A stretch of 64,000 nt of DNA from a virus. The notes under the pieces are model-generated. The model was not told where the DNA came from and did no database searches. It saw only the letters and a list, made by a program, of their open reading frames with translations. The stretch lies in IMG/VR virus record IMGVR_UViG_3300024348_000005, positions 1 to 64,000 of that record. One strand, given 5' to 3'. Both the position numbers and the translations under genes were made by a program. The number at the start of each line of letters is the position of its first letter. Positions within the stretch are counted from its first letter, which is position 1. Of this stretch, positions 9,046-57,266 are shown piece by piece.

Positions 9046-11919
9046 ATGGCAAATTCAAACAGAGTATTCGTTTCTCCAGGTGTCTACACATCTGAGAAGG
9101 ATCTAACATTCGTAGCACAAAGCGTCGGAGTAACAACATTGGGTTTAGTGGGTGAGACATTAAAAGGTCCAGCATTCGAACCAATTTTGATTACAGATTT
9201 CGACGAATTTAAAACATATTTTGGTGGTACTTCTCCTGAAAAGGATGGTAATTTAAACCCAAAATATGAACTTCCTTATGTTGCTAAATCTTACTTACAA
9301 GAGTCTAACCAATTATTCGTAACAAGAGTATTAGGTAAGACAGGATATAAACCAGAAAAAACTTTCGGAATTAAAACAATCGGAGGTATTACATTAGGGT
9401 CGTACAGTGGAGTGACAACAGGGTTATCTATGTCGGGTAACACCTTAGCAAATTTAACAGGTAGTACACTTTATTCTGAATTATCGGGTAAAACATCAAT
9501 AGACGGAGATTCAATCACTGACTATATTTTCAAAACATTCAGTGGATTTACAAGTGCAAACCATAACAATTGGTTTATCATGGGTGCTTTACCAACTGGA
9601 CAATCTGAACCAACAGGAACTGAATTGGTTTCACCTTTAACGGGTAAACAATACGCTGACAATGTTAATGGTAAAGAATGGTATAATTCATTAGTGTCAA
9701 GTAATAATAATGAAGTTTATTCATATAAATTTATTTACAATAGTGGAACAACTAAATTTGATGTAACAAAATATACATTTAATTCGAGTTTAAACGCTAA
9801 TTATAATGATGTAGTAGTTGCCGCGTTAAGACCAAGAGGTTATTATAGTGGTAATACTTTATTACATGAAGTAACAACAAATGGTTATTTTTCAGTAACA
9901 GAAGATGTTGATAATATTGAAATAAATCCAATGGGTGAGTTTGTAATTAATGTTACAGGTTCTACAGGAGGAGCTAAATCATACACATGTTCTTTAAATA
10001 CGACATCAACAAAATACATTACTAAAGTATTAGGTATTGATGTTTTTGATAAAAACAGAGGTGATTTCCCACTTTATGTACATGAGGTTTATCCTAAATT
10101 TTTAAAAGAATCTTTCGCAAGAGGATTGGTTAGAGGATTAAGTTTAACTGAAGTTTATGAAAGTGATGGTGATAATTTTATAAAATCTTGGGATACTACA
10201 TTATCACCAACGGTAGTTTCTGAAGTACGTGGTGGTAGAGTTTCTGATTTATTTGATGTTATTACAATATCAGATGGAGAAGCGGCAAACTTTCAAGTAA
10301 AATTAATGATTCAAAACATTAATATTGAGACGGGAGAATTTGATATCTTGGTTCGTGATTTTAACGATACTGACGAAAATCAAGTTATACTTGAGAAATA
10401 TTCAAGATGTTCTATGAATCCTGATTTACCGGGTTATGTTGCAAGAAAGGTAGGTACATCAGATGGTGAATATGAGTTACGTTCAAAGTATATCATGTTA
10501 TCTATGTATAGTAGTCACCCTACAGATGCATTTCCTGCAGGTTTTAAGGGTTTTAAAACAAATTCAAATTTCGGAGCGGGAGCTCAATTAGGTGATTTAT
10601 TATACAAAACAGATTACTACGATGCTGGTGATGTTATTACATACGATGCTGATGGTTCTGAAAATGTAGAAGCTGGAGATAAAATAAGAAAAGTTTCTTT
10701 AGGTCTTTCTTCTAAGATTGGTTTCGATAGAGATTTACTTAAAAATAAAGGATTAGGTGGTGACGGTGTAACACATGGTTTTCACTTATCAACAAACGCA
10801 TCTACAATAACAGGAGCAACCAATTCAGGTTTTGAATTTAAAACAACCCCTTATGATTTAGAGGGTCAATCAGGTACCGGTAATAAACTTACCACATTAG
10901 CAAACCGTAAATTCACGTTTGCAGTTTGTGGTGGATTTGATGGTTGGGATATCTACAGAAACGTAAGAACTTACGGTGATGGTTACATCTTTGGTAAATC
11001 AACATACACAAGTAACAACACAGATAATAGTGGTGTATTTAATGCAGATGTTGCCAACTCTGATTATTACGCTTACTTAGAAGGTATTGAAACATTTGCT
11101 AACCCTGAAGCTGTTGATATTAACGTATTCGCAACTCCGGGTATCGACTTTTTGAACCACAGTTCATTAGTTAATCAAGCAATCGATATGGTAGAAAACG
11201 AAAGAGCGGATTCATTATATATTATGAACGCTCCGGGACCTGAATTTATCACAACGGCGGACGATATTTCTGCAGAGGTTGATAACTTAGGTTTAGATTC
11301 TAACTATTCAGCAACATATTGGCCTTGGATTCAAGTAAGAGACACAGATAATGCAACACAACTTTACATCCCACCAACTGCGGAGGTTGTAAGAAACATT
11401 GCATTGACAGATAATGTATCATATCCTTGGTTCGCAGTAGCGGGTTATTCAAGAGGTATTGTTAACTCAATCAAAGCGTATAAGAAATTAACACTTGATG
11501 AAAGAGATAATTTATACAAAAACAGAATAAACCCAATCGCAACATTCTCTGATACGGGTACTATTATATGGGGTAACAAAACCTTACAAGTTAAAGAATC
11601 TGCACTTGATAGAATAAATGTAAGAAGATTGTTACTAAGAGCTAGAAAATTAATTTCTGCGGTAGCAATTAGATTATTATTTGAACAAAATGACGAACAG
11701 GTTAGAAATGAGTTCTTGAGATTGGTAAACCCAATTTTGGAATCAATTAAGAAGGAAAGAGGTCTTTACGAGTTCCGTGTATCAGTGTCCAATGACCCTG
11801 AAGATATAGATGCTAACACATTAAGAGGTAAGATTTATATCAAACCAACTCGTTCTCTTGAATTTATTGATGTGGAGTTCGTAATTACACCGACAGGTGC
11901 TTCATTTGAGAATATCTAA
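9046..11919 (+). CDS. Contractile tail sheath protein (gp18-like)
   Basis: FVSPGVYTSEKD, GETLKGPAFEP, YSATYWPW, PWFAVAGYSRG, RINPI, IWGNKTLQ, LDRINVRRLL, FEQND, IKPTRSLEFI. Confidence 0.97.
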   Translation: MANSNRVFVSPGVYTSEKDLTFVAQSVGVTTLGLVGETLKGPAFEPILITDFDEFKTYFGGTSPEKDGNLNPKYELPYVAKSYLQESNQLFVTRVLGKTGYKPEKTFGIKTIGGITLGSYSGVTTGLSMSGNTLANLTGSTLYSELSGKTSIDGDSITDYIFKTFSGFTSANHNNWFIMGALPTGQSEPTGTELVSPLTGKQYADNVNGKEWYNSLVSSNNNEVYSYKFIYNSGTTKFDVTKYTFNSSLNANYNDVVVAALRPRGYYSGNTLLHEVTTNGYFSVTEDVDNIEINPMGEFVINVTGSTGGAKSYTCSLNTTSTKYITKVLGIDVFDKNRGDFPLYVHEVYPKFLKESFARGLVRGLSLTEVYESDGDNFIKSWDTTLSPTVVSEVRGGRVSDLFDVITISDGEAANFQVKLMIQNINIETGEFDILVRDFNDTDENQVILEKYSRCSMNPDLPGYVARKVGTSDGEYELRSKYIMLSMYSSHPTDAFPAGFKGFKTNSNFGAGAQLGDLLYKTDYYDAGDVITYDADGSENVEAGDKIRKVSLGLSSKIGFDRDLLKNKGLGGDGVTHGFHLSTNASTITGATNSGFEFKTTPYDLEGQSGTGNKLTTLANRKFTFAVCGGFDGWDIYRNVRTYGDGYIFGKSTYTSNNTDNSGVFNADVANSDYYAYLEGIETFANPEAVDINVFATPGIDFLNHSSLVNQAIDMVENERADSLYIMNAPGPEFITTADDISAEVDNLGLDSNYSATYWPWIQVRDTDNATQLYIPPTAEVVRNIALTDNVSYPWFAVAGYSRGIVNSIKAYKKLTLDERDNLYKNRINPIATFSDTGTIIWGNKTLQVKESALDRINVRRLLLRARKLISAVAIRLLFEQNDEQVRNEFLRLVNPILESIKKERGLYEFRVSVSNDPEDIDANTLRGKIYIKPTRSLEFIDVEFVITPTGASFENI

Positions 11920-11943
11920 TCTTAAAGGAGATATATAAAAAGA

Positions 11944-11975
11944 AAAGGGTTCCCAACGGGACCCTTTCTTATTTT
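11944..11975 (+). terminator. Intrinsic terminator after sheath
   Basis: AAAGGGTTCC-CAAC-GGGACCCTTT followed by CTTATTTT. Confidence 0.75.
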
Positions 11976-15688: not shown

Positions 15689-18600
15689 ATGCCAAGTTAC
15701 TTAGATTTTGATTCCACAAAAAAGTTCAGAGATTTTATCTTAGGTAAGACCTTAAATCAACCTAATATACCTGACATATATCAAAATGTAACTATACAAC
15801 CCAATATTGATCCGGGTGATGTTGATGACAATAGAAGAGAAACATTAGTTAAGGTACAAAATAACAACATGTTTGGTCCACTTGATTATATTATCAGGGA
15901 AAACTTGGACATTTTACCCATATCAAGAAATTTAGGATTATATCCTTATTTTCCTACAAATTCTCCAAATTATAATCTAATTGGAATAATGGGTTCATCA
16001 TCATACGATACTGAATCTGAGTTATTTAAATTTGCAGCAAACACTATAAAAAACGATAGACAGGGACCTGTTTTATCGAGAATACAAAGAAATTTAGAAA
16101 CGGCAACCACAGGTAGAATTAGATTACTTGATGCATTAGATGGAAATACCGCCACATTATCAAATATACTAACAGGTAAAGAACCACTTGTTGAATCTAA
16201 CAACAAGATTACGGTAGCAAAAACATTACCCGGAAAGGCAATTGATTTTTTACAAACTTTAAGTGGTACACAGTTACCATTTAGTGAAATACCTGGTGAT
16301 TACTTAACAAACCCATTAAACCCAACACCCAATTTTAGACCAGAGGCAAAAACTGCGGTGGGTGGATTATTACGGGATATTACAGGAGCAATTGGTTCAT
16401 TAATTGGTATACAAAGAAGACCTAAACCATCAAGAAAACCTTCCGATTTATTCATTGAATATATGGGTGAAGGTCAAAAACAAAGATTATTTGATGGTTT
16501 AACATTTAATACATACGCACCAAATTACACAACAACCGCAAGATCACAAAACAGTAGTAAAATTTTTAATTTTGTTGATAGAGTTGCTCAAGGTGTAAGA
16601 AATTTATTAGGAACCGAAGCACCGGCAAGTAGGGCGTACATTGGTGATGATAGAGGTGATGATGTTAAAAGAGCGATGAGTGATTTTAACGACAGACCAG
16701 TTAAAAGTCCATATTATTTAAGTGTAATGTTTGACGATGTTGCGGCTAACCTATTTAATAACCCAACCAAAACAAGACCAATTTCACAAGGAGGTAATAT
16801 TGGTGGAAATTTAACATGGTATAGTTCAAATTCTCAAAATAAATTAGGATATAACAATAATGAGTATGCTTCTGAAAGTTCAAAATTAGAAGAAAGTCTA
16901 TCAACAAAATATAAATTTAGAGAAGACTCTATTTTAGGGTTAACACAAGAGATTTTAAATTCAATGCCAAAAGATGGTTCAAGATTTGACCATATTGGTA
17001 ATGTTATAGATCAAACAAGTCGGGCGTTTAAAGACGGTAATATACAAATTTCTAGAGGTTCAGCGGTTAAATACCTTGATGGTAAGGGGGAGGATGTTGG
17101 TGTTGAGTATTGTAGGGTATGGACGAAGGATAGGTCTTATATGAACTATGGTGACATAATGCCGTTACATGGTGAACCACTTGATAGAAAGTTCTATCAG
17201 AGGTCAACAAGACCATATAGAAGAACTAATATAAGAAAGTTTGACGCAAGTGTTATGTCTGACACGTGGAACCTTAATATAGCACCAATGTCAAATGGTA
17301 ATAAAGACTTTGCAGGTTCAACCAATATTGTTGATGGTTATCCATTTGGAAGAGATAAAGACGGAAAGGGTTTTTACGCTAAAAAATATATGTTTTCAAT
17401 TGAAAACTTGGCATGGAAAACATCTACATTACAAGGATTTACGGTATTGGATTTACCGTACTGTGAAAGAGGACCAAATGGTGGTAGAGTAATGTGGTTT
17501 CCACCATACGATTTAAAGGTTTCAGAACAGAACAACGCGAGATGGGAATCTAATACATTTTTAGGTAGACCTGAACCAATTTATACATATCAAAATACGG
17601 AAAGAAGTGGACAGGTTTCCTTTAAAGTAGTTGTGGATCACCCAAGTATATTGAATTTATTAACAAGAGACCATTTTAAAGGAATGTCTGACGATGCTGC
17701 GGATGATTATATTAATTCATTTTTTGCGGGTTGTAAAGATATTGATTTTTATAGTTTAATAAGAACATATACAACACTTGACGGTAGTGATGTTGATTTA
17801 ATAAAACAATATTTGGATGAAGGTGGACCAATTAATGAAATACCTCAATTCAAATTAGAAATTCCACCAACAGAAATACCAGCACCTGGTGGTGAAGATC
17901 CCGGTAAATCATCACAATCAAAACCAATTAAATTAGATATTAATTTAAAATTCCCTAACGATTTTCCTAAAGGTAATGATTATATTTCAGGACAATCATA
18001 TAAAACATTTTACGATTCATTAATAAGTTCAAAAGACACATTTAAATTTAATTTAGGTAAAGATATTGAAGCTGTATTTAACTCAGGTAATCCAACTGCA
18101 AATGGTAAAAAGGATTTAGAACAATTAGGGAATAAAAATTTAACGTCAGGAGATTTAGAAGGTTTTAAAACACAACAAAAATTAATTCTTGAGGAATCCT
18201 ACACCAAACTAACAACTGGATATACAGACTTCAATACTAAACTTGATACACTTAAAATTGATATATCAGGTAAAACTGTTGACGATGTAGTAATTACAAT
18301 TTTATCATCAACTTCTGCAATTGCCGATAATAACTATAACTTTAAGTTGTCGTTAAGAAGAACACACGCAATATTACAAGAAATAATTTCTAAGATATCA
18401 AATGATGTAACAATTGGGAAAGCCTCATTAGATAAGAAATGGAAACTTGATTCAAATAAAATATCGTCCGCAAAGGGAAAAGAAAAGGCATTAAAAGAGA
18501 TTGAATTTACATATAAAGAATTAGGTTACGAGAGAGATGGTAAACTCAAAATTAATACCACAAGTGTGGGTGAATTTATTCCAAACGAATCAGGTAAAGA

Positions 18601-20515
18601 TTGTAGTGCCGCAAATTTTAATTATGTTGATTTACGTATCAACTCACCAATTGCATTTGGTTGTAGACAATCTTATGTTAAGATGGAATATGCTCAATTA
18701 CCTAAACCTGAGGAACTTAAGAAAGAAACCTCAAATTCAACAGATATACCGGGAGAACCACCAAAAACAAAATTGGTACAAATTGAACCAATAAGTGTGG
18801 GAAGAATTGCTAAAAAACCTCCAATTGACGTGATGAAAAGAATCATCATGAAGACTTTATCTGAATGCTACTATTTTAAAAAATTAGAAGAAGATTCACC
18901 ACTTGCATTTGGTTCATTAAGAGAGAAATTAAGATATTTTCATCCCGCATTTCACTCAACAACACCTGAAGGATTAAACGCTCGACTTACATTCTTACAA
19001 CAATGCATTAGACCTGGCGATACAATACCATTAAAAGGTATTGCGGACGATACAGATTTAAACGCAAGAAATACTTCATTTGGTCCACCACCTATTTGTG
19101 TATTAAGAATAGGTGATTTTTATCATTCCAAAGTTATTATACGTGATGTTAACATAACGTTTGATGATAACGTGTGGGATTTAAACCCTGAGGGTATTGG
19201 TGTACAACCAATGATTGCAAACGTATCGTTACAAGTAAACTTTATTGGTGGACAAGGTTTAGAAAAACCTGTATCAAGATTACAAAATGCGTTGTCATCT
19301 AATTTTTATGCAAATACTGAAATGTATGATGAGAGATCAATAACAACCAATTCTAAAATGGGTGGAATGGATACGTCTGGTTTTACTAAAACATTCTTAG
19401 AGGAATTATTGAATAGATATATACCACCCGAAGAAGCGAATGACCAAAACAGAAACAAACTAACCAAAGAAAAATATTTAGGTGATTTATCTAACGAAAT
19501 TTTAGACTATACCACCATTGTTGATAATTTATTTAAAAAGACACAATCTTATGTTGAATCTTTTGGTGTAACACGTATACAAACAGATGGACAATTTGGT
19601 CCTATATTGGCTGGATTAGCATTACATCCAAATTATAGAAAAATAACGGGATATACTGCTAACACAGATGCGACGGATGAAACACTTTCATTATTTGGGT
19701 TATATGAAAAAAGTAAAGATTTATCATATTACACAAGAATACTTAAAGAAAAATTATTAGAAAAAGTTGATACCACATCAATGTATAGTATTTTTCTCAG
19801 TTACGATTTAAATTTTTTAGGTAACGATGATATAAGATTTAACGGTACAGAAGATAGGTTAAGTGAATTTACAAAAACAAAATTAGTTGAGAAGATAGAC
19901 GAGTTCATGGATAGTAAATTATTCGTAGAATTAGAAGATAAGATGCAAGAACTTATTAGTGAATTAGATAAACTTAATTTCATAACTAAAAATGGGTTTG
20001 ATATTAAACTAGAAGATGTGTTAGGTATTAAATCAGGACTTTCTGGATTTACACCAACAAATTTCTATAATAACTATAAAAGTTGTGTTAACTACATTAA
20101 AGATAACAGTTCTAAATTCTATGAAAGAATGGATGTAACGACTATTGATTTTAATAATATTGATTTACAAGATGAACAGTTTGGTGAGTTATTATCAGAA
20201 TTATTTGCGGGAGAGTTAAAAAATATAATGGCAACATTTGAAGATGACCCCGAATTATTTGATTCAAGATTCTTAAATCAACTTGAGGAAGCAATTGATA
20301 TTTTCTTAGATTATAAAGTTGTGGTTACTGAAGATTTAATAACCAAAGAAACCGCGTCGTTTAAATTTACTAAATTTTTACCAAGACCAAACAGTAAAAA
20401 AATTAGTTATAAAATGATACTTCCTGAAACTAATGAAACTGTAACTGACGACATAAAAAAGTTATTTTCAAGTAAAGTACCACCAACAGATAAATTAAAC
20501 TATTATAAAAGATGA
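15689..20515 (+). CDS. Large baseplate/tube-initiator-like protein with internal OmpA-like domain
   Basis: Tube-fold motifs WESNTFLGRPEPIYTYQNTERS and PPICVLRIGDFY..VII.DVNITFD...WDLNPEG flank SSTSA.A...YNFKLSLRR (OmpA C-terminal-like). Confidence 0.6.
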   Translation: MPSYLDFDSTKKFRDFILGKTLNQPNIPDIYQNVTIQPNIDPGDVDDNRRETLVKVQNNNMFGPLDYIIRENLDILPISRNLGLYPYFPTNSPNYNLIGIMGSSSYDTESELFKFAANTIKNDRQGPVLSRIQRNLETATTGRIRLLDALDGNTATLSNILTGKEPLVESNNKITVAKTLPGKAIDFLQTLSGTQLPFSEIPGDYLTNPLNPTPNFRPEAKTAVGGLLRDITGAIGSLIGIQRRPKPSRKPSDLFIEYMGEGQKQRLFDGLTFNTYAPNYTTTARSQNSSKIFNFVDRVAQGVRNLLGTEAPASRAYIGDDRGDDVKRAMSDFNDRPVKSPYYLSVMFDDVAANLFNNPTKTRPISQGGNIGGNLTWYSSNSQNKLGYNNNEYASESSKLEESLSTKYKFREDSILGLTQEILNSMPKDGSRFDHIGNVIDQTSRAFKDGNIQISRGSAVKYLDGKGEDVGVEYCRVWTKDRSYMNYGDIMPLHGEPLDRKFYQRSTRPYRRTNIRKFDASVMSDTWNLNIAPMSNGNKDFAGSTNIVDGYPFGRDKDGKGFYAKKYMFSIENLAWKTSTLQGFTVLDLPYCERGPNGGRVMWFPPYDLKVSEQNNARWESNTFLGRPEPIYTYQNTERSGQVSFKVVVDHPSILNLLTRDHFKGMSDDAADDYINSFFAGCKDIDFYSLIRTYTTLDGSDVDLIKQYLDEGGPINEIPQFKLEIPPTEIPAPGGEDPGKSSQSKPIKLDINLKFPNDFPKGNDYISGQSYKTFYDSLISSKDTFKFNLGKDIEAVFNSGNPTANGKKDLEQLGNKNLTSGDLEGFKTQQKLILEESYTKLTTGYTDFNTKLDTLKIDISGKTVDDVVITILSSTSAIADNNYNFKLSLRRTHAILQEIISKISNDVTIGKASLDKKWKLDSNKISSAKGKEKALKEIEFTYKELGYERDGKLKINTTSVGEFIPNESGKDCSAANFNYVDLRINSPIAFGCRQSYVKMEYAQLPKPEELKKETSNSTDIPGEPPKTKLVQIEPISVGRIAKKPPIDVMKRIIMKTLSECYYFKKLEEDSPLAFGSLREKLRYFHPAFHSTTPEGLNARLTFLQQCIRPGDTIPLKGIADDTDLNARNTSFGPPPICVLRIGDFYHSKVIIRDVNITFDDNVWDLNPEGIGVQPMIANVSLQVNFIGGQGLEKPVSRLQNALSSNFYANTEMYDERSITTNSKMGGMDTSGFTKTFLEELLNRYIPPEEANDQNRNKLTKEKYLGDLSNEILDYTTIVDNLFKKTQSYVESFGVTRIQTDGQFGPILAGLALHPNYRKITGYTANTDATDETLSLFGLYEKSKDLSYYTRILKEKLLEKVDTTSMYSIFLSYDLNFLGNDDIRFNGTEDRLSEFTKTKLVEKIDEFMDSKLFVELEDKMQELISELDKLNFITKNGFDIKLEDVLGIKSGLSGFTPTNFYNNYKSCVNYIKDNSSKFYERMDVTTIDFNNIDLQDEQFGELLSELFAGELKNIMATFEDDPELFDSRFLNQLEEAIDIFLDYKVVVTEDLITKETASFKFTKFLPRPNSKKISYKMILPETNETVTDDIKKLFSSKVPPTDKLNYYKR

Positions 20516-45681: not shown

Positions 45682-46863
45682 ATGAAAAAGAATAGATACG
45701 AAATATTAAGAAAAAACATTGTTAGTGGATCTTTAGTGTCAACAACAAGTCAAAATTGGTATGACAGCAATGGTGATTTAACACCGTGGTCAGGTAGTAT
45801 TTACATCGGACCAAACATCGGAGATGGTATATATAATTTCACGGGTAGTGTTGATAATAAATATTCAAGTAACGTTACCCAAGGTCATTACAAATGGAAC
45901 GGAACTACTTGGATTTCAACACCACTGAGTGGATTATCTGAAAGTTATAATCTACCGGTATTTTTAGAAAGTACGGTAGATGAGATGGGCGTTATGGTTG
46001 GATTTGACGGTGCAATTGAACAAATGGAACAACTTGTTAATTTCTCATATACTCAAACAGGTTCCACAATACAAGTTTATAGTACGGTTAATCCCGATAA
46101 ACTTAGAAAAATTGTTGAACAAACATATACAATTAATTGGGGTGATGGATTAATTTCAGGACTAACAGTTAATGGTGGTGTTGTTGGACAATCTTTGCCA
46201 TCACTTTCACACATATACGCAGCACCTTCAGGATACACTATAACAATAACATTAGATGCACCGTGGACTAAACAAAAATTAAGTAAAAAGATTACAGTTC
46301 CAAGAAATACCACAATAACAAACTCATTAGGTTCTTTTACAGGAACAACGGTACCAGCATATTCAAACCTAACAGGACAAACTCAAAATTACCTAAATGA
46401 CCTTGATATTACAAACAACACGGGTTATACTACAACAGGTTTCACATATATGGCGGTTGGTGGTAGTAGGTTAGATGAATTAAAAAAATACGGTTCAACG
46501 GGATATACCCAAACTTTAACAAGCGGTTCTTCTCCCGACTTAGTTAAATTTACGGGTTACACATTTACATACACCGGTAATACAACTGGTACCACCACAT
46601 TACAATATAGAGACTATGAGGATGGTTATACCATGATAACAGGGTCAACAACAGGATTTACAAAAGAAGAAGTATTCAATAAGATTTTAACAAGAAACGA
46701 ACATTTTTTAGGATTTATTGATGAACCAACAATTTATTCTGATTTATTTGTTGAAAGGGGTAAACAAGGTGTTATGGAAATTAACCTCAGATTGGGTGAA
46801 ATTGATAACGTTGGTGAATTGGATATCTATGGAAATGGATATTTTAACGTAAGAAAACAATAA
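45682..46863 (+). CDS. Structural protein with PKD-like domain
   Basis: YTINWGDG....SHIYAAPSGYTITITL PKD motif. Confidence 0.65.
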   Translation: MKKNRYEILRKNIVSGSLVSTTSQNWYDSNGDLTPWSGSIYIGPNIGDGIYNFTGSVDNKYSSNVTQGHYKWNGTTWISTPLSGLSESYNLPVFLESTVDEMGVMVGFDGAIEQMEQLVNFSYTQTGSTIQVYSTVNPDKLRKIVEQTYTINWGDGLISGLTVNGGVVGQSLPSLSHIYAAPSGYTITITLDAPWTKQKLSKKITVPRNTTITNSLGSFTGTTVPAYSNLTGQTQNYLNDLDITNNTGYTTTGFTYMAVGGSRLDELKKYGSTGYTQTLTSGSSPDLVKFTGYTFTYTGNTTGTTTLQYRDYEDGYTMITGSTTGFTKEEVFNKILTRNEHFLGFIDEPTIYSDLFVERGKQGVMEINLRLGEIDNVGELDIYGNGYFNVRKQ

Positions 46864-46888: not shown

Positions 46889-47806
46889 ATGGCAGTAGGT
46901 AGTTACGGAATAATTAGACCCGCAGATGTGTCACCAGATGATGTAGAAATATTTTATCACTACGTTTCAGGAAGAACGTCAACCGCACCGGTTTCTCTAA
47001 AAACTTTAAACAGTTCTAGTGTTTTGACACCAGTTTATCATGGTAATGATACTACAGATGATACAAACGCCCCAAATTTGGAAGTTTTAGGAGGATTATA
47101 TAATTTAAAATTAGAATCTGCGGATTTCACGGACTTAGGAATATATACACTTCATGTAAGACCAAAACAAATAAGAACTACAATTACAGATTGTGGTGTG
47201 TTGGCGTCATTACCTTCAGTAAGAGGTTTAGTTATAGATTTAAGTAATGTTCCTTCTGGTGACAGAAGTAAATTTACCCCTCAAGGATTAATTGGATATA
47301 GAATAGAATATATAAACACTGAGAACAAAAAAGTAACAAACTTCTATAGATTAGTTACTTCATCGTTTTATTGTACACCTGTGGTTTCTAATTTATCTAG
47401 TACAACACAAAAGGCGATTAGATATCAATATAGTGATGCTGCAACGAATATGTTGTTTTTAACAGTAACACCATCGTCCGCACCATCAAGTAAACCAAAC
47501 ACAATTCCATTTATCGGTACACCGGGTCAAAAAATTATTTTTACCAATACATTTTTTAACCCAACAACGATTGAGGTTGAAATGGTTGAACATGACGCAT
47601 CAACATTGGCACATGCATTATATGGTAATCAAAGTAAGGCGGTTACACCGGGTATTTACACAATTTACGATAACAATAACAATATCTATAAACAATACAA
47701 CTTATACGAAATCAAAGACGACGTTAACGAAACATTATACGAAGTTAGAGAGAAGAGAACAGATATTGATGAAACTTTAAATTTTGATACAATTACCGAA
47801 TTATAA
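46889..47806 (+). CDS. Virion structural protein (305 aa)
   Basis: Late motif upstream; coupled to the next gene; beta-rich. Confidence 0.6.
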
Positions 47807-50800
47807 TGGCAAAATATAAAGTTCCAAGTCAGGCGGCTAATGGATCACAAACTTTTAGTGACAACTTAATCGGAGTTCAAATCACCGATGGTACTAGCCA
47901 ATTGACCAATACGAACTTTGCTCTTGATAAAACAATACCTGAAAGGGACGCTAAAAATTTTAAAACAAATCCGTTTTCGGATTTTTTAACTTTAGACGAT
48001 TTAAAAATTGAAGAGTCCGCTCCAATCACACAATCTAAATTAGAAAAAAATCAATCAGTTAAATTTAGAGATTCAAAAAAAGATTCAGGAAAATCATTAT
48101 ATGGTTCATTAAAAAGTAGAATTGGAGTCGCGGTTACAAAAATTATTAAGTTTTTTCCTGCCTCGGTTATGGTTGATATCGACTCACCAAAGAGTCAAAG
48201 TGGTCTAACTGCGTATAACATAACATATAATCAAAATACAAAAAGAACTAGATTAGATATTGAATTAGGAATGTTTTACAATCCATTCGATATTCTTTTT
48301 ACAAAACCAAATACAAACACAGTTGTTACTGTTGATAACCCAATTAGAAATTTCTATTCATCATATAAAAAATATGTAATTGAATTAAGTGGTGTTACAT
48401 ATAATATTGTTAGTTATGTTGAACCTAATACAAAAAATAAAATAACTCTAACGGTTTTAGGTAATCCATTCAATGGACAAACAACAACCACTAAAAATAT
48501 TTTAATTAGACCAAACGATGGTGTAAAGGAAGAATTTTTTATAGGACTTGATGATTTAGAATCATCATTATTAAATAGAGAAACACTACCAATTTACCAA
48601 TCAACATTTAAAGTACCAAGAGATATTAAGAATGGTTCGGTAACGAGTTTGTTAGATGTAAAATACAATTGGCCAATATCAAAAGACAATTACAATTTAC
48701 AAATTGTAGGTATTGGATATGATGAATATATTAATAATTTAATTGATGTTGCAGATGAAATTGATGAATATAAGTCTAACTTATTAGTTAGATTTTTATC
48801 TTCACCACAATTATTTGAATTTGATAGTGATGACAAAAAAGCGGAGTCTGTATTTCAATTATATGGACAAAGTTTTGACAAGGTAAAAAAATATATAGAC
48901 AATATTGCTTACATGAGAAATGTAAGTTATGATGGAGTTAATAACCTACCCGACATATTATTAAAAAATTTATCTAACACTTTAGGTTTAAGTACAATTA
49001 ATCTTTTTGATGAAAAGGATTTAAATGAACTTTTATATACAAGAACAGATACACAATATTCAGGATTAACGGTAGGAACCACTATCGTTGACGCAGAAAA
49101 TGAATTTTACAGAAGATTATTAGTTAATCTTTCATACATATACAAATCAAAAGGTACAAGGTCTTCAATTGAATTCTTTTTGAAATTCTTAGGAGCACCC
49201 GAACCTTTAATTAAGATTGATGAGTACGTCTATAATATAGTTTCATTACCAAAGTCATTTAACATTGATAGTGAAATTAGAAGTGTGATTATGGGTGATA
49301 AAACTGATTTAATAATTTCAGGATTCACACCGTCAACATATTCATACTCAACAGGTACAACATTAGCATCAACAACATACACTAGAGAGGAATACCCTGT
49401 TACAACTGACGGTTTACCAAGAGGATACAGTAGTGTTACTAATAATAATTTCTTTCAACAAGGTTCTGGTTGGTACGACATGACGTTAGACCATAGGTCT
49501 TCAACAACGTTAGATATTGAAAACTCAACAACAACAGGTAGAACAAAAACAATAAAAACAAAAAACAAACCATACACATATGGTGAAGAATATTTTGATA
49601 TTTTTAGATCATTACCGGGTTTAGATACGGGATTTGAAATCGTAAGTAAAGTTGACAACAATCAAAAACAAATTGTCAACAACAATTCAACTTTAATTCT
49701 TAATAGAAAAAATATTAGTGTTTATCTTTCATCCGCTAATGTGATGGATTTTGACATATATCGTAAATCTAGAGATTTGGAATTGTCATTTGGTTCTAAC
49801 ACATTGTTACCACAAACAGGTTATACGTTTGCTGAGTATGTTGATAGAATGTTACATGACCAAATTAGAAATTCACATGTAATAAAGTACAAAAAGAATT
49901 ACATCACCTTAGAGGATATACACCAAGATTATATTACTAATAGTAATTTTACTCCATATAATTTTCCAAGTGTAAATGAATTTGTAAATAAAATAGGACC
50001 ATATTGGACGCAGGTTTTAGACCAAGTAATCCCATCAACTACTTTATGGACAGGTGGTAACCTAATTCAAAATGGTATTTTTGGTAGACCAAAATATTCT
50101 TATAGATTTGGATGTAAACCAAAAGAAATTATTGAGAATGTTTATCCGAAACCAATTACATCGGGATATCAACCATTTCAAGATGAAATTGAACAATTTG
50201 ACGAATATTATGAATTTTCAACAGAAATAGATGAAACGGGTGAATCATCACATGATGGATATATAAGATTTTTTCCAACGTTTGAATTAGATGGTGTTTT
50301 GTTTAGTGGTAGTTCAAATAACTCAAGTACATATGTTTTAATATCAGGTAGCACACCAACAGCGACAAGTGCAAGGTTATATACAGGTAATGGAAATGAA
50401 ATTATTACAAATAATCCAAGTTTATACTCAAATGACTTTAATCAAATAAAACAATTATGGAAAAATGCAATAACAGGAACAACCGAATATATTAATACAT
50501 GTACCGATTGTTTATATTCTAGTTATACAACGGATTTATTTGGTAGAAACAATGAATATGCTGACGAAATTAGTTATTCAGGAATTTCAGGTTCAACACA
50601 GTATTTTAATGATTTTGGATATAGTCAAGGGTATGTTCCACTTCTAAAAAGTATTCGTAAAAAATTATTAACAGTTTCTTTTTTTACCGATAATAATGGT
50701 GAAGAAAAAATGAAAGTGACTTCGTTTTCGTATGGTCCAAATGATGGTACAATATGTAAAAGTTTTGTATTTGGTTTAGATGGTTTTGGTGATAATGATG

Positions 50801-53019
50801 CGTTTGATTGTAGATTTAGTGGTGGTACCGCGGTATATATTCCTGGACCAACTCCTACACCAACTGCAACTCCTACTCCTACCCCAACACCAACACCTAC
50901 TGCGACACCAACGGCAACACCAACACCAACCCCAACCCCTACACCGACTCCTACCGCAACACCAACGGCAACACCAACACCTACCGCAACACCAACGGTA
51001 ACTCCTACCCCTACACCTACTCCAGAATGTAACTTCGATGTTGAAGTAATTGTTGTAACGAATACACCAACACCAACTCCTACACCAACGCCAAATTGTA
51101 ACTTTGATGTAGAGGTAATTGTAGTAACTAACACCCCTACACCGACTCCTACTCCAACGCCAGATTGTAACTTCGATGTGGAGGTAGTTATTGTTACCAA
51201 CACACCAACACCAACCCCAACCCCTACACCAGATTGTAACTTCGATGTGGAAGTCGTTGTAGTAACGAACACCCCTACACCTACACCAACCCCTACACCA
51301 GATTGTAACTTCGATGTTGAAGTAATTGTTGTAACGAATACACCAACACCAACCGCAACACCTACGGAGACGCCAACTCCGACACCAACCGCAACACCAG
51401 ATTGTAACTTCGATGTTGAGGTAATTGTGGTTACAAATACCCCTACACCAACACCAACCCCAACTGAAACTCCTTTGGATTGTAATTTCGATGTTGAAGT
51501 AATTGTTGTAACAAATACCCCGACACCTACTCCAACCGCAACACCTACGGAAACACCAACACCAACCCCAACAGTAACACCTACACCAACTGCAACTCCT
51601 ACACCGACTCCTACACCAACTGCAACCCCAACTGCAACCCCTACTCCTACACCAGATTGTAACTTCGATGTTGAGGTAATTGTGGTTACAAATACACCAA
51701 CTCCAACTCCAACACCAACTGCAACTCCTTTGGATTGTAACTTCGATGTTAAGGTAATTGTGGTTACAAATACGCCAACTCCTACACCGACTCCGACGCC
51801 TGAAACACCTACTCCAACCCCTACCGCAACACCTACACCTACGCCAACACCTGAGACCCCAACTCCTACACCTACACCAACCGCAACTCCAACTGCAACA
51901 CCAACTGCAACACCTACCCCTACACCAACCGCAACTCCAACTGCAACACCAACTGCAACACCTACCCCTACTCCGGAATGTAATTTTAATGTTGAGGTAA
52001 TTATTGTTACAAATACTCCTACCCCAACTCCTACACCTACACCAACCGCAACACCAACTGCAACTCCTACACCTACACCAACCGCAACACCAACTGCTAC
52101 ACCGACACCTACACCAACTGCGACCCCAACTCCTACACCAACACCGGCAACACCGACACCTACACCGACTCCTACACCAACTGCAACCCCTACACCAACA
52201 CCAACAGTGGACGCTAATTTCTATTTCTTAGCAGAAAGATATGAGTGTTTAGAAAATGGTAGTTGTAGTTACGTTGAGGATGTGATTGTAATGAACCCTA
52301 TAGATTTATCAATTCACCCATCGTCGCCTCGTTACAGGTTAGACCCTACAACAGGATATATTTTAAGAATAATAACAGAGGTGTCGCCACAAATTGCATT
52401 AATTACAAATATGTCAGGAGGAGGTAGTGCAATCTGTAGTGCTTATTGTGATCAACCAACCCCAACTCCTACCCCAACACCTACACCTGCTACTCCTACC
52501 CCAACTCCTACACCTGCAACGCCTACCCCAACACCAACACCATTACCTGGTTCAGGGTATTATAATGGCGGATATGGTTGTCAATTCTATACTTATGACC
52601 CTGGATTCCCAACTTGTGATCCAAATGCCACTCCAACACCAACACCAACATTAACTCCGATATCACAATGTACACAATTAAATTGGTCATTTAGTGAAAT
52701 GAACGGAGCACAGGGTGTATTTGAGTTATATGTAAACTCAATACTTGTAGAAAGTAGAGCGTCAACTTCAAATGGAAGTTACACGGTTTGTCTTAATGAT
52801 ACAATAGAAGTTGAGGTGTTCTGTAATGCATGTGAAGATTCACCAAATGTACATTCAAACGCGTATTCAACATCTGATAAATTTGTATTAACAGACGCCG
52901 CGTGTACTCAGAATGGTACTGCATCTATGATAACAGGAACTTATACTGTGGTATCGGGTGATATTGGAACACCGTTTAGTGTAAATACATTCGCCGAATG
53001 TGAATATGGATGTTTATAA
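47806..53019 (+). CDS. Baseplate wedge/fibre-attachment protein (P2 gpI/T4 gp7-like) with long Pro/Thr and [10 protein letters not shown] repeat arm
   Basis: [13 protein letters not shown] and [28 protein letters not shown] (gpI-like); repeat arm ~50850-52660; Cys-rich C-terminal domains. Confidence 0.7.
50848..52660 (+). repeat. In-frame low-complexity array: (PT/PTA)n linkers interrupted by 10 copies of CNF(D/N)V(E/K)V(I/V)(V/I)VTNT
   Basis: Counted in the translation. DNA copies vary mainly at third codon positions. Confidence 0.95.
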
Positions 53020-53108: not shown

Positions 53109-53639
53109 ATGCAAGTAACATTTTATCTAACTCAGGCGTCAGCAAATACCGCCGCTGGACCTTTTAACATATCAGGAACAACATCGGGAGGTGCTGCGAA
53201 TACTGTAGAAATACAGGCGGGAGTGTCAAAGTCAACATTACTAGCGGGTTATACCGAAGAAATTGCCAATAACATAACAGGAGGTACCGTTACAAGTACA
53301 GGTGCAACATGTAACACAACTGATACATGGAGTATTAATGAATTGTATGTTACACCAACCCCAACCCCATCACCTGTACCATATGCTGAATATACCGGTT
53401 CTGGTTATGGAAGTAATGTTGGATCCGCATGTAACGATGCATCAACGGCCAATGGTGGTCTTGGTAGAACATTATATTCAGATTGTGAATCTTCCGAATT
53501 TGGTGTTAATTGTTATGTTTATTCAGACGATTTCGGTAATGCATTAACTGGATACAATAATGTATTCATGCACGCATCAAATTGGGATATTAGTTCGGTG
53601 ACAGGAAGGATAACCGCACTATCGTCAGAGCAATGTTAA
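53109..53639 (+). CDS. Small modular fibre/decoration protein (N-domain, PT linker, Cys-bounded domain)
   Basis: Own late motif at 53085; TPTPTPSP linker; ends in Cys. Confidence 0.7.
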   Translation: MQVTFYLTQASANTAAGPFNISGTTSGGAANTVEIQAGVSKSTLLAGYTEEIANNITGGTVTSTGATCNTTDTWSINELYVTPTPTPSPVPYAEYTGSGYGSNVGSACNDASTANGGLGRTLYSDCESSEFGVNCYVYSDDFGNALTGYNNVFMHASNWDISSVTGRITALSSEQC

Positions 53640-53665
53640 TTGGTGATTTAAAACTATACAATTTT

Positions 53666-53697
53666 AAAACCCCTTTATTATAAGGGGTTTTTTATTT
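53666..53697 (+). terminator. Intrinsic terminator (possibly bidirectional)
   Basis: AAAACCCCTT-TATTAT-AAGGGGTTTT followed by more T. Confidence 0.8.
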
Positions 53698-53725
53698 AAT
53701 TTATATCTAACAGTATTTATAGTAT

Positions 53726-55093
53726 ATGTCATTTTCAGTTAGAATAAGTGGAGTTACAATTGGGTTGTCGATATTAAACGTCAACATACAAGCCTGTTCC
53801 GATATAAACGGTTCAGTTGGATGTACAACCGTTGTAACAAACGTTCCGAGAGCGGGATTTCCGATGTTTGTTGATGTACCCGATAATACATATTCAGTAA
53901 AATTAGTTGCGTCGAATATTAATGATGGGGAAGATAGTAATGGAAATCTTTGTTCACCATCACCATTGGTAATTGCATTAAATAACAGACCAACACCGAC
54001 ACCTACAGCAACACCAACACCTACACCAACACCTACACCAACAGCAACACCAACACCAACAGCAACACCTACACCAACAGCAACACCAACAGCAACACCA
54101 ACAGCAACAGCAACCCCTACACCAACCCCAACACCAACGGCAACTCCTACACCAACACCTACGCCAACACCTACACCAACAGCAACGCCAACACCAACAG
54201 CAACTGAAACACCATATTATTTACAATTAAGTCGTTGTGATTCTGCACCAAACACAGTTACTGGTTGGACACTGAATACTTATACACAATCACAAATAAT
54301 GGTTGGTAATATATTCTTATCAGCCGGTGGTTACTATTATCAAGTTATTAACTATCAAACAGCACAACCAAACCCAGCGGGAATTATAGATGGTACTAAA
54401 GCGGGAGCACAATATCAAACATGTTCCGACACGCCTGGAGCCTATGTGGAACCACCAGATAATCCTGGTGTTAGTTTATTAATACATACTGGTCAAACAT
54501 TCAATAATAGTAGTACACCTTGTGCTATGTACGAGTCATCAATTGCAACAAATAGTGGTACAGTATACTTAAGTGGGCATACAATACCAGCAAATGGTGA
54601 CTACGCGTACACAACTGCGGTTTGTAATGAAACATATGCCGGAGATTCAAACTATTATGCTTCTCTTGCGAATAGTAGTAGATATGCGTTTACAATTGGA
54701 AGTGGTGGATATATTAATAACGTTGTTCAATGTGGTGTAATACCAACCGCAACGCCAACGCCAACCCCTAGTCCAACACCTACATCGGTAGTGTTATATG
54801 GAATATTTAGATCTACAGGATTATCGACTTTTAATGGTCATTGTAATAACAACTATGTAACCAATGCTCAATTCTATGGTCAAACAACATCACCTAATAG
54901 TTTATATGGAACCATTGTGTATGCAGATACAGAATATACACCATTTGACGGTGGTAGTTTATGGTATGCTTTAGGTAATGATAGTCAATCTAATACAAAT
55001 GATTTACCATACTATTCAATACAAATCATTAGTACTGGTGAGGTAACTAGTGTACAATATTTAACAAGTTGTTCTAGTGGTTCTCAAGCATAA
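53726..55093 (+). CDS. Modular fibre/adhesin protein with PT linkers and Cys-bounded domains
   Basis: N-domain, ~70 aa PT tract, then three small Cys-bounded domains; own late motif at 53714. Confidence 0.7.
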
Positions 55094-55118
55094 AATAAAA
55101 AAAAGATATTTATAACAT

Positions 55119-57266
55119 ATGAGTTTTTTAAACAATAACAATTCAGAATTCTTATCCGCAAGGATAACCCAAAAGGGTAGAAATGCCATTGCTAAAGGTA
55201 GTTTCAATATAGAATATTTTCAAATTGGTGATTCTGAATTTGATTATAACACAGTGTTCTCAACACTAACAGGTCAAACGACACATCAAAAAGTAATGTC
55301 ACCTTTTGACAAAGAAAGTGGTATAAAGTATCCTATTAAATTAGACTCATCAACAAATACGACAACATATGGTGTACCTGTTTTAAATCCAAACAACGAA
55401 CCAACACCAATAAGAAATGACATGGGACCGGCTGGGTTTGTCACAAATTATAGTGGAGGAACCCCAAGTGTTGAATGTAAAACACAATCAATATCCTATA
55501 CAAAATTAAGTGGATCAACAGGTTTAGATGTATTAACTGGTAGTACCTTTCAAAATTGTGAATATATCACTTTAGTGTTTGATACATTTGGAACAAATAA
55601 TGTTATTACAGGTAAAACAAATAGTTTAGTTTACAAAGTTCTTAGTATTAGTGGTAACACATTAAACTTAGACAGAAACATAATTAACCTTTCAACATTA
55701 AGTGGTAACGTTCAAGTTGTCTGTAATAATTGTGAACAAGAATACCCAATTGAATTGGACATATATGATGTGAGTGGTTACATGTTAGAACCAATTAATC
55801 AAACACAACAATTAAATTCGTGGACAATGAATACCGTTTGGACACAAAAACCAATCGGTGCAGATTATAACGGTACAGATGAAACATTAGCGGGATATGA
55901 CGGTAATCAATATGTTTCAACAAAAGAATTATTAGGATATACCTCAACAGGACAAACGTTCGTTCCTTTTAATGGTTTATCAACAAGTGGAATTACAATT
56001 ACAGGGACAACATACAAAAATTCATTTGATGAATTAATAGAAGTGACACCATCAGAACAAAGATGTATAGCAATAATTCATTATTCTGAGTTGGGTGATT
56101 TAAGATACGATACAGAAAGATTTTATAAGTACGATGATTATATAAGTCACAAAACAGGAACCACAAGTTCTGATATATCAATTGTAGAAGATTATGATAG
56201 AGAAAATGATTTAAGAGATTTAAGTGATAGTGAATATTTTGAAATTTATATTCCTTTCATTTATTATCATAGAAATACGGGTACAACAATGGGTGCAAGA
56301 TTCTTTATGGATACCACAGACTATTATGTAAAATCAACAAAGAACGCCAAACATCAATTACTATTTAGATTTTTAGTTGACGAACAAAACAACAAAGTAG
56401 GTAAGGTATTTGTAAAAAATAAAATCGTTGTTTTTGATGACCAAGAATTAGTTGCAATATTAGATTACAGGTCTAACAGAAAATATACATTACCCGCACC
56501 AAAAATATCGACAGTTCCAAGTGATACTGTAACCGCAAACTCATTATTAACATCAACAGGACAAACCGCCTACGTTACTTATGTTTTTGCCAATACAAGT
56601 GGAACAACGATGAATGCTTTACCTTGTAATTATTATTCTAAAATTACAGGAACAACAACACCTTCACAGGTTACAATGAAATTTAGTGGAAACACTTCCT
56701 TTAATACTTTAAAAACTTCATTTTCAGGTGTTACTGACGGATTTGTTGCGGATAAATTTTATGCCTTAGTTCAAGTTTCAACAGGAACAACAACTAATAG
56801 TTCAGATTGGAAGGCAATTGATTTAACAACAAGTGCAATTAAAACAAATGGTTTTATAGATCCGTCGAAAATTACAGGAACAACATTCACATTATATTAT
56901 TCAGGTTACACGGCAGCATCTATCTTCGATTTGGAAGATCATATGTCGGGAGTTAGTTCTAATTATTTAGGAACCTCAGGAGCAACTGACTATAACGTAA
57001 CAACACCACAATTTGGTGACGAACAACCATTCCCCGGTAGTATTAGATTTGTAAGGGCGACGGATGTTGAACAACTTAACTTTTTAGTTAATCTACCCTC
57101 AAGTACATTTACCACATCACAAAACCCATCTTACACAAGTGGATATCCGGTGATTACAGAAATTGCTTTATTAGATTCCAATAAAGAACCTTTGGTTGTT
57201 GGAAAACCATCATATCCAGTTAAAAGAATTGGAGCTCAAGTATTTGCTATCAAATTAGACTTCTAA
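55119..57266 (+). CDS. Tail-collar/fibre attachment protein (P2 gpH N-terminal/gp8-like)
   Basis: ARITQKGRNAIAKG.F.IEYFQIGDSE.DY and C-terminal VITEIALLDSNKE.LVVGK.S.PVKR. Confidence 0.65.
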   Translation: MSFLNNNNSEFLSARITQKGRNAIAKGSFNIEYFQIGDSEFDYNTVFSTLTGQTTHQKVMSPFDKESGIKYPIKLDSSTNTTTYGVPVLNPNNEPTPIRNDMGPAGFVTNYSGGTPSVECKTQSISYTKLSGSTGLDVLTGSTFQNCEYITLVFDTFGTNNVITGKTNSLVYKVLSISGNTLNLDRNIINLSTLSGNVQVVCNNCEQEYPIELDIYDVSGYMLEPINQTQQLNSWTMNTVWTQKPIGADYNGTDETLAGYDGNQYVSTKELLGYTSTGQTFVPFNGLSTSGITITGTTYKNSFDELIEVTPSEQRCIAIIHYSELGDLRYDTERFYKYDDYISHKTGTTSSDISIVEDYDRENDLRDLSDSEYFEIYIPFIYYHRNTGTTMGARFFMDTTDYYVKSTKNAKHQLLFRFLVDEQNNKVGKVFVKNKIVVFDDQELVAILDYRSNRKYTLPAPKISTVPSDTVTANSLLTSTGQTAYVTYVFANTSGTTMNALPCNYYSKITGTTTPSQVTMKFSGNTSFNTLKTSFSGVTDGFVADKFYALVQVSTGTTTNSSDWKAIDLTTSAIKTNGFIDPSKITGTTFTLYYSGYTAASIFDLEDHMSGVSSNYLGTSGATDYNVTTPQFGDEQPFPGSIRFVRATDVEQLNFLVNLPSSTFTTSQNPSYTSGYPVITEIALLDSNKEPLVVGKPSYPVKRIGAQVFAIKLDF

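What the first reader, a model, noticed from the sequence alone, without database searches (positions are those of the whole stretch)
9400..57266. Virion-wide [ST]-G-x-T motif: candidate glycosylation/modification sequon
Seen (hand counts): [ST]GxT occurs 20 times in the 715-aa collar protein, 13 in the 393-aa PKD protein, 13 in the 589-aa protein and 9 in the sheath, with further copies in the 1737, 1261, 1608 and 1921-aa proteins. It occurs only twice in the 965-aa polymerase, never in the 809-aa NrdA, and only as the Walker A in UvsX and DnaB. In the 393-aa protein, 13 of 18 S/T-G dipeptides have T at the fourth position. In the sheath, 8 of 9 copies fall in nt ~9400-9970, outside the conserved core, i.e. 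the likely surface-exposed insertion. Codons vary, so this is not a DNA repeat. Inference: unrelated folds have converged on a recognition sequon, plausibly for a phage-encoded O-glycosyltransferase that coats the virion. It differs from the Bacteroidota host sequon D-(S/T)-(A/I/L/V/M/T).
Basis: partly seen in the sequence, partly recalled or inferred. Interest (0 to 1): 0.8.

Follow-up and report, generated by a model that had tools for sequence, protein, structure and literature searches.

The report
Ser/Thr-Gly-x-Thr motif on phage tail
The outer tail, baseplate and sheath-surface proteins of this uncultured giant T4-like lake phage carry the four-residue motif Ser/Thr-Gly-x-Thr about six times too often; it most likely marks turns and element starts in these proteins, and a role as a sugar-attachment signal is possible but unproven.

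Summary
[ST]GxT occurs 20, 13, 13 and 9 times in the 715-, 589-, 393-aa proteins and the sheath. Composition predicts 0.9-1.5 each. Twelve peripheral virion proteins hold 98 copies against 16.7 expected; the other 30 ORFs hold 8 against 5.7. An unbiased scan ranks SG.T and TG.T first after Pro/Thr linker patterns.

The three richest proteins share no sequence similarity. Related lake-phage contigs carry the motif too; T4 and a Microcystis phage do not. Many sites are invariant in relatives, while others appear in lineage-specific insertions.

In the confident parts of two AlphaFold models, 17 of about 19 copies lie at boundaries of secondary-structure elements: hairpin turns, strand starts and helix N-caps.

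A 96%-identical relative encodes a genuine TibC/Aah-type protein O-heptosyltransferase. Its published acceptor geometry (strand-loop-strand, acceptor at loop start) fits the hairpin copies. However, that gene sits beside a collagen-like fibre gene, and relatives without it keep the same motif density.

I therefore read the motif mainly as a structural building habit (about 0.5). A modification sequon remains a live rival (about 0.3). The scan noted similar motifs in other uncultured phages.

The parts
9046..11919 (+). Tail sheath (957 aa). It has 9 motif copies, 8 of them at nt 9406-9967 inside the outer insertion domain (residues ~105-373).
   Evidence: Pfam Phage_sheath_1 and 1C; counts. The AlphaFold model is confident only for residues 105-373. 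That part aligns with the outer domains of solved sheaths, Z 7.2. The region is absent or shorter in the Mel-JY01 sheath.
15689..20515 (+). 1608-aa virion protein, no family match; 5 copies (1.15 expected).
20825..26590 (+). 1921-aa virion protein, no family match; 7 copies (1.45 expected), three of them in a 5-6-residue tandem run.
38552..42337 (+). 1261-aa protein directly after the gp25- and gp6-like baseplate genes; 7 copies (1.6 expected).
42337..44106 (+). 589-aa baseplate or fibre-module protein, no known family; 13 copies (0.9 expected).
44106..45665 (+). 519-aa protein (phrog_15511 domain); 5 copies (1.1 expected).
45682..46863 (+). 393-aa protein; 13 copies (1.4 expected). Of its 18 [ST]G dipeptides, 13 have T at position 4.
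   Evidence: Alignment A2 shows G232, T234, T247, G248, T250, T320, G321, T323, G325 and T327 invariant in 12 homologues of 54-85% identity.
47806..53019 (+). 1737-aa baseplate protein with Pro/Thr linkers and CNFDV repeats; 11 copies (3.5 expected).
53109..53639 (+). 176-aa protein; 3 copies (0.7 expected).
53726..55093 (+). 455-aa protein (phrog_15511 domain); 4 copies (1.6 expected, not significant alone).
55119..57266 (+). 715-aa last protein of the tail module, unnamed family; 20 copies (1.4 expected).
   Evidence: Alignment A1 shows sites 131, 178, 277, 387 and 480 kept in most homologues; 131, 277, 480 and 586 are still kept at 34% identity. Model.

Best explanation
[ST]-G-x-T, usually preceded by a hydrophobic residue, is a protein-level punctuation mark used by a clade of freshwater giant T4-like phages (hundreds of matching metagenome contigs) to build the outer, fast-evolving, beta-rich domains of the virion. 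These are the peripheral baseplate and fibre proteins, the sheath's outer insertion domain, and probably the capsid protein's insertion.

The hydrophobic residue and the Ser/Thr close one strand or helix. Gly-x makes the tight turn. The Thr opens the next strand or N-caps the next helix.

The motif is inherited at many sites within each protein family. It is also created again in lineage-specific insertions, often as short tandem runs 4-9 residues apart. This explains why it recurs in proteins with no sequence similarity.

Shown here: the enrichment, its restriction to peripheral virion proteins, its conservation, and its position at element boundaries in predicted models. Inferred: that this geometry, rather than an enzyme, is what selection maintains.
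For: - Enrichment over composition shuffles, specific to peripheral virion proteins.
- No similarity among the three richest proteins.
- In the confident parts of the two models, 17 of about 19 copies lie at element boundaries. Two-residue hairpins: S178-G-N-T181 and S268-G-N-T271. Four-residue loop: S233-G-T-T236. T483 and T589 are the first residues of strands. T133, T141 and T169 precede helices.
- G and T4 are invariant at many sites across 47-91% identity.
- The replacements seen by eye are S/T/N/D at position 1 and S or N at position 4, which are the classical capping residues.
- The excess in the syntenic tail module is similar in relatives with and without the TibC-like enzyme. L002 has 38 matches and L003 43; L010 has 39 (16.2 expected) and L012-L015 have 44 (13.9 expected).
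- A cultured Flavobacterium phage shows a milder excess that partly sits in Ig-like and LamG-like beta-sandwich domains.
Against: - The local structures are heterogeneous (2- and 4-residue hairpins, helix N-caps, one copy inside a strand) while the sequence is uniform. A single turn type would not predict that.
- Beta-rich tail proteins of T4 show no strand bias toward the coding strand, and those of Microcystis phage Mel-JY01 show no excess at all. The fold class alone does not demand the motif.
- In the 715-aa family the two genomes with the TibC-like gene have about 17-20 copies and the two without have about 6-7. These are by-eye counts and are confounded by phylogeny.
- Both models are poor overall (mean pLDDT 49 and 44.5), and solvent exposure could not be computed.
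- The script machine was lost, so relatives and controls were tested only at DNA level.
Confidence: 0.5

Rival explanations
1. Modification sequon. The tetrapeptide, or the strand-[ST]G-loop-strand it forms, is the acceptor site for a phage-encoded cytoplasmic O-glycosyltransferase. This could be the TibC/Aah-type heptosyltransferase or one of the GT2 enzymes. The enzyme would decorate the exposed parts of the tail and baseplate, giving a glycan coat.
For: - The copies lie in loops and caps of outer domains.
- The 96%-identical relative G001 encodes a TibC/Aah family member scoring 282 bits against a 200-bit cut-off. It aligns to PDB 4RAP at E 4e-55, with the catalytic Asp110, T226, K230, W305 and all four iron-finger Cys conserved.
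[quoted passage not shown] The hairpin copies have exactly that geometry.
- SgtA shows that a soluble GT-A enzyme can use Thr of G-x-T (PMC7157674).
- Four to six GT2 genes are present per genome.
- The motif is missing from T4 and Mel-JY01.
Against: - The TibC-like gene is directly upstream of a collagen-like fibre gene, its likelier substrate.
- It was not found in G003 and G006 (92-93% complete), nor in the less complete G005, G007, G008 and G009. The four of these whose modules were counted (G003, G005, G006, G009) carry the same excess.
- TibC's Arg286 is not conserved in the phage homologue.
- The two ~370-aa GT2 proteins examined have no TPR domain.
- Many sites are invariant like core residues, rather than turning over as glycosites often do.
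- There is no glycosyltransferase in the window and no chemistry.
Confidence: 0.3
2. Neutral by-product. Thr/Ser/Gly-rich local composition, plus old slippage-type duplications of short oligopeptides in rapidly evolving insertions, left many diverged copies without selection on the motif itself.
For: Copies often come in runs spaced 4-9 residues apart (sheath 121-150; 393-aa 247-256, 291-305 and 320-327; 1921-aa 957-971). The carriers are Thr-rich at 9-17%. The Flavobacterium phage excess is largely compositional or repeat-borne.
Against: Whole-protein shuffles leave a 6-15-fold excess. T at position 4 follows 13 of 18 [ST]G in the 393-aa protein, and local richness cannot give that. Isolated copies are invariant across 47-91% identity. 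Adjacent copies differ in codons.
Confidence: 0.1
3. Functional surface. The paired hydroxyls at hairpin tips form Thr/Ser-lined surfaces that bind host polysaccharide or water/ice-like lattices, or that serve as docking points between virion subunits.
For: The motif is restricted to distal, receptor-facing proteins, and Thr is strongly preferred at position 4.
Against: The motif is also abundant on the sheath's outer domain, which does not bind receptors. No ordered arrays are seen in the models. There is no direct evidence.
Confidence: 0.1

Closest known systems
Aah/TibC bacterial autotransporter heptosyltransferases and their strand-loop-strand acceptor motif (PMC4358343, PMC3835316)
   Same: These are cytoplasmic O-glycosylation enzymes acting on beta-rich surface proteins. 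The acceptor is defined by structure, with Ser/Thr at the start of a short loop between two strands. A true family member is encoded by the phage's 96%-identical relative.
   Different: The known substrates are beta-helical autotransporter passengers encoded next to the enzyme, and no linear sequon is known. Here the neighbour is a collagen-like fibre, and the motif excess persists in phages lacking the enzyme.
SgtA-BclA3 of Clostridioides difficile: O-GlcNAc on Thr of Gly-Pro-Thr collagen-like triplets (PMC7157674)
   Same: G-x-T is the acceptor context for a soluble GT-A enzyme, and Ser is also accepted. GT2 genes are present in every relative checked for that family.
   Different: In BclA3 the context is a long collagen-like repeat. 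Here the tetrapeptides are isolated within globular domains. The phage's own collagen-like fibres are G-[ST]-[SA] rather than G-x-T. No TPR domain was found on the two GT2 proteins examined.
Mycobacteriophage virion O-glycosylation (Freeman et al. 2023, as summarised in PMC12619734)
   Same: Phage-encoded glycosyltransferases modify structural proteins of the virion.
   Different: There the glycans sit on the C-termini of the capsid and tail-tube subunits. Here the motif is internal, the tube has none, and no modification has been shown.
Beta-hairpin turn and helix N-cap preferences (Gly in tight turns; Ser/Thr/Asn/Asp as capping residues; Thr favoured in strands) - own knowledge of protein structure
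   Same: Gly occupies the turn, Ser/Thr flank it, Thr starts the next element, and the substitutions are to Asn, Asp or Ser.
   Different: General turn statistics do not predict a 6-15-fold excess of one tetrapeptide confined to the outer virion proteins of one phage clade and absent from its enzymes and from T4.

Membership tests
Acceptor sites of a BAHT (Aah/TibC) O-heptosyltransferase | A BAHT enzyme is encoded by the same genome | tested here: met
TIGR04414 scores 282.5 bits (cut-off 200) in G001, the 96%-identical relative. The match to 4RAP has E 4e-55 and keeps Asp110, T226, K230, W305 and four Cys; R286 is not conserved. No whole genome is held for the window itself.
Acceptor sites of a BAHT (Aah/TibC) O-heptosyltransferase | Acceptor Ser/Thr at the start of a short loop between two beta-strands (PMC3835316) | tested here: inconclusive
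   True for S178, S233, S268 and T304 in the models. Other copies precede helices or lie in longer loops. The models have low overall confidence.
Acceptor sites of a BAHT (Aah/TibC) O-heptosyltransferase | Motif excess goes with presence of the enzyme among relatives | tested here: not met
   No BAHT was found in G003 (93% complete), G006 (92%), G005, G007, G008 or G009. Yet their tail modules have 39-44 pattern matches against 14-16 expected, as in the BAHT-carrying G001 and G002.
Acceptor sites of a BAHT (Aah/TibC) O-heptosyltransferase | Heptose (or other sugar) found on the residues | not testable with these tools
   This needs mass spectrometry of virions or co-expressed proteins.
SgtA-type O-GlcNAcylation of G-x-T | GT-A catalytic domain fused to TPR repeats, encoded next to the substrate gene (PMC7157674) | tested here: not met
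   The ~370-aa GT2 proteins of G002 and G003 have no TPR hit and lie among sugar-pathway genes (Glf, methyltransferase), not beside the tail module. Not all GT2 genes were examined.
SgtA-type O-GlcNAcylation of G-x-T | Acceptors lie in collagen-like G-x-T repeats | tested here: not met
   The motif copies are isolated or in short runs within globular domains. The phage's collagen-like fibres are G-[ST]-[SA] triplets.
Mycobacteriophage-type virion glycosylation | Acceptor tails at the C-termini of the capsid and tail-tube subunits (PMC12619734 citing Freeman 2023) | tested here: not met
   The tail tube has 0 copies. The copies are internal. The capsid protein of relative G002 has 3 internal copies and none at its C-terminus.
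Bacteroidota general O-glycosylation | Sequon D-[ST]-[AILVMT], acted on outside the cytoplasm (own knowledge) | tested here: not met
   The motif has Gly after the Ser/Thr and no Asp before it. Phage structural proteins assemble in the cytoplasm (established knowledge).
Tight-turn / capping motif | Gly in the turn, hydroxyl residues at the flanks, located at boundaries of secondary-structure elements | tested here: met
   17 of about 19 copies in confident model regions are at boundaries. This rests on predicted, not solved, structures.

The most novel reading that the evidence does not exclude
The tetrapeptide is a virion-wide modification code. A phage-encoded soluble transferase reads hydrophobic-[ST]-G-x-T turns on every exposed tail, baseplate, sheath-surface and capsid-insertion domain and covers the particle with sugars. 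The enzyme could be BAHT-like in some lineages and another enzyme in others. Related Gly-Thr and Ser/Thr-Gly signatures that this scan noted in several other uncultured phage clades would then be dialects of the same system.
Probability: 0.27. Interest if true: 0.85.

Novelty: new variant of a known kind. Interest (0 to 1): 0.5.

Why it matters
If the motif is structural, it is a simple sequence marker for outward-facing, fast-evolving domains in a very abundant group of lake phages (more than 590 sheath-matching stretches in IMG/VR). It would be useful for annotating their many unnamed tail proteins and for designing stable beta-hairpin-rich domains.

If it is a sequon, it would be the first defined acceptor motif for phage virion glycosylation outside mycobacteriophages. 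It would also mean that glycan-coated virions are common in freshwater, with consequences for host recognition, grazing, aggregation and immune recognition of phages. The same genome offers a testable enzyme candidate with matching acceptor geometry.

Tried and rejected
- DNA repeat or DNA-motif explanation: rejected. Codons vary and 86 of 100 pattern matches are in frame on the coding strand.
- Shared repeat domain or paralogy among the carriers: rejected for the 715-, 589- and 393-aa proteins, with BLASTP E of 0.03 or worse. Only phrog_15511 is shared, by the 519-, 455- and 1737-aa proteins.
- The motif as one unit of the genome's collagen-like fibres: rejected. Those are G-[ST]-[SA] triplets, which read SGTS or SGSS.
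- Naming the carriers: Pfam, PHROGs, PDB sequence and profile searches, Foldseek and the ESM Atlas gave nothing usable for the 715-, 589- and 393-aa proteins.
- The AlphaFold models were poor overall (pLDDT 49 and 44.5). The conserved sheath core failed while its insertion domain was confident.
- Whole genome: none is held.
- The Python machine was lost. As a result I could not run position-specific logos, local-window shuffles, protein-level tests on relatives and control phages, or phylogenetic contrasts. Relatives and controls were compared only by a DNA pattern with dinucleotide shuffles, which does not control for amino-acid composition.
- Literature searches for a described [ST]GxT sequon or phage tail glycoproteomics found nothing relevant.
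Full report
**What the window is.** The window has about 32% GC. It encodes T4-like replication genes: polymerase, gp32, UvsX, DnaB, NrdA/B, primase and SbcCD. It also encodes a tail module: sheath, tube, hub, two very large proteins, gp25- and gp6-like wedge proteins, and then nine unnamed proteins of 176-1737 aa ending with the 715-aa protein.

It has no close relative among deposited phages; the best sheath match is 33% identity. IMG/VR, however, holds 41 loci with the 715-aa protein at 30-96% identity and 69 with the 393-aa protein. More than 590 stretches match the sheath, and the 80 kept are at least 69% identical. Contigs reach 335 kb. This is an abundant clade of giant T4-like phages known only from metagenome contigs. 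The lake origin is taken from earlier scan notes, not from my own calls.

Summed over twelve peripheral virion proteins (10,636 aa) there are 98 copies against 16.7 expected. The other 30 ORFs (10,007 aa) hold 8 against 5.7, and two of those are Walker-A-like TGKT. The conserved inner parts have none or one: tube, gp25-like, gp6-like and the 639-aa protein have 0, and the hub has 1.

An unbiased scan of all three-residue gapped patterns ranked SG.T and TG.T first after the Pro/Thr-linker patterns of the 1737-aa protein. In the 393-aa protein, 13 of 18 [ST]G dipeptides have Thr at position 4 while Thr makes up 14% of the protein (sequence). Local Ser/Thr/Gly richness cannot explain this. Position -1 is hydrophobic in about two thirds of copies, and position 3 is free.

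**Independence of the carriers.** The three richest proteins have no detectable similarity to one another, so the motif is not carried by one repeated domain. It is also not a DNA feature: 86 of 100 matches to the back-translated pattern lie on the coding strand, and codons differ between neighbouring copies.

**Distribution among relatives and controls (DNA pattern against dinucleotide shuffles).**
- Window: 100 vs 28.7.
- Syntenic 22-kb modules of relatives: L012-L015 44 vs 13.9, L010 39 vs 16.2. L003 has 43 matches and L002 38 (counts only, no shuffles run). The 30%-identity group L035 gives 23 vs 10.6.
- T4 structural region: 28 vs 13.1, split 14/14 between the strands, so there is no bias toward the coding strand.
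- Microcystis phage Mel-JY01: 17 vs 17.1.
- Flavobacterium phage immuto: 48 vs 16.9. There much of the excess comes from a six-fold Ig-like repeat and Thr/Gly-rich beta-sandwich proteins.

The motif is therefore clade-wide rather than universal to phage tails. A caveat applies: this null does not control amino-acid composition. The proper protein-level test on relatives could not be run because the script machine was lost.

**Conservation.**
- 715-aa family: sites 131, 178, 277, 387 and 480 are kept in most homologues, and 131, 277, 480 and 586 persist even at 34% identity. Others are lineage-specific. By eye the counts fall from 20 (window) to about 17, 11, 6-7 and 4 with increasing distance.
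- 393-aa family: ten motif residues are invariant in 12 sequences of 54-85% identity.
- Sheath: S166-G167-x-T169 and T304-G305-x-T307 are invariant or nearly so (G167 and G305 in all sequences, the flanking S/T in at least 90%). The copies at 121-141 turn over, and some relatives have more copies than the window.
- Lineage-specific insertions bring new copies, for example in L009 and L034.
- Replacements are mostly S/T/N/D at position 1 and S or N at position 4. Gly is rarely replaced (by eye).

**Structural context.** Both AlphaFold models are poor overall. They are confident in the relevant parts: residues 120-200 and 460-600 of the 715-aa protein, and residues 105-373 of the sheath.

The sheath part aligns with the protruding outer domains of solved sheaths (Z 7.2 and 5.7). 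It is largely missing from the Mel-JY01 sheath.

Of about 19 copies in confident regions, 17 lie at boundaries of secondary-structure elements:
- Two-residue hairpins in which the Ser ends one strand and the Thr starts the next (S178...T181, S268...T271).
- A four-residue hairpin loop (S233-T236).
- Strand starts (T483, T589).
- Positions just before helices (T133, T141, T169).

Two copies lie inside regular elements. The motif is thus in turns and caps, probably exposed. It is not one single turn geometry.

**Glycosyltransferases.** None lies in the window. The 96%-identical relative G001 and three other relatives each carry two to six GT2 genes.

Following leads from earlier notes of this scan, I searched for the Aah/TibC family. 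G001 has a 705-aa protein whose C-terminal 320 residues are a genuine member. It scores 282 bits against a cut-off of 200 and matches TibC (4RAP) at E 4e-55. The catalytic Asp, T226, K230, W305 and all four iron-finger cysteines are kept; R286 is not conserved.

[quoted passage not shown] The hairpin copies fit that description.

Three findings argue against the link:
- The gene sits directly upstream of a collagen-like fibre gene. That is the usual enzyme-substrate arrangement of this family, and the fibres offer hundreds of G-[ST]-S triplets.
- The enzyme was not found in G003 and G006 (93% and 92% complete), nor in four less complete contigs.
- Tail modules from four of those six contigs (G003, G005, G006, G009) carry the same excess.

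The SgtA precedent (Thr of G-P-T triplets, GT-A plus TPR; PMC7157674) was also examined. The two ~370-aa GT2 proteins I inspected have no TPR and lie among sugar-pathway genes.

**Conclusion.** The signal is real, strong, protein-level, conserved, and confined to the outward-facing parts of the virion in one large phage clade. The simplest reading that fits all tests is a clade-specific way of punctuating beta-rich outer domains. The enrichment predates, and does not depend on, the one enzyme whose acceptor geometry matches.

The glycosylation reading is not excluded. The sites are accessible, a matching enzyme exists in this genome, fold class alone does not demand the motif, and in the 715-aa family the highest counts coincide with presence of the enzyme (four genomes, phylogenetically confounded). 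I put the structural reading at about 0.5, the sequon at about 0.3, and neutral or binding explanations at about 0.1 each.

Similar motifs have been noted by this scan in several other uncultured phages, with mixed conclusions.

Noticed in passing
L197:472-2586 (+) and L197:2655-4079 (+), record G001 (96%-identical relative); about 77-80 kb beyond the window's end: A 705-aa fusion whose C-terminal half is a genuine TibC/Aah-type protein O-heptosyltransferase. The catalytic Asp and the four-Cys iron finger are kept. It lies directly upstream of a collagen triple-helix repeat fibre gene. Its N-terminal ~385 residues have no family match.
   Followed up: partly
L194:8337-14429 (+) and L194:14539-16401 (+), record G001: Fibre proteins of 2030 and 620 aa, built largely of proline-free G-[ST]-[SA] collagen-like triplets. 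Their N-termini carry hydrophobic-[ST]-G-S-L type heptad-like repeats.
   Followed up: partly
window 50800-52100 (within the 1737-aa gene): Long Pro/Thr linker tracts (TPT 177 observed vs 11 expected across the structural set) separate repeated CNFDV-type peptides. This region also has negative GC skew on the coding strand.
   Followed up: no
window 9046-11919 (model m0b27daf599df): AlphaFold failed on the conserved sheath core (pLDDT below 50 for residues 1-104 and 374-957) but was confident for the lineage-specific outer insertion domain. This is the reverse of what one would expect.
   Followed up: no
L200:387-2577 (record G003): UDP-galactopyranose mutase lies immediately upstream of a 367-aa GT2. 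This suggests galactofuranose-containing glycans made by a relative that lacks the TibC-like enzyme.
   Followed up: no
G001:C1:278764-279141 and G002:C1:54094-54474: RfaE-domain-II-like nucleotidyltransferase genes (94-101 bits, below the family cut-off) are present in two of the three genomes that carry the TibC-like enzyme (G001, G002; not found in the 60%-complete G004). They were not found in the enzyme-less G003 and G006.
   Followed up: no
window, motif codons: About 70% of motif copies use NCA for the first Ser/Thr followed by GGA or GGT (ACAGGW, TCAGGW). I did not test whether this exceeds the genome's general codon preference.
   Followed up: no
L111 (T4, 76-112 kb): The back-translated pattern is about twofold over the dinucleotide-shuffle expectation in T4, equally on both strands. 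The shuffle null therefore underestimates chance matches in coding DNA, which is a caveat for all DNA-level comparisons here.
   Followed up: no
L202:595-2370 (record G002): The gp23-like major capsid protein of a 65%-identity relative has three motif copies (about 0.7 expected). Two of them lie in the stretch between the conserved blocks; I did not place the third.
   Followed up: partly
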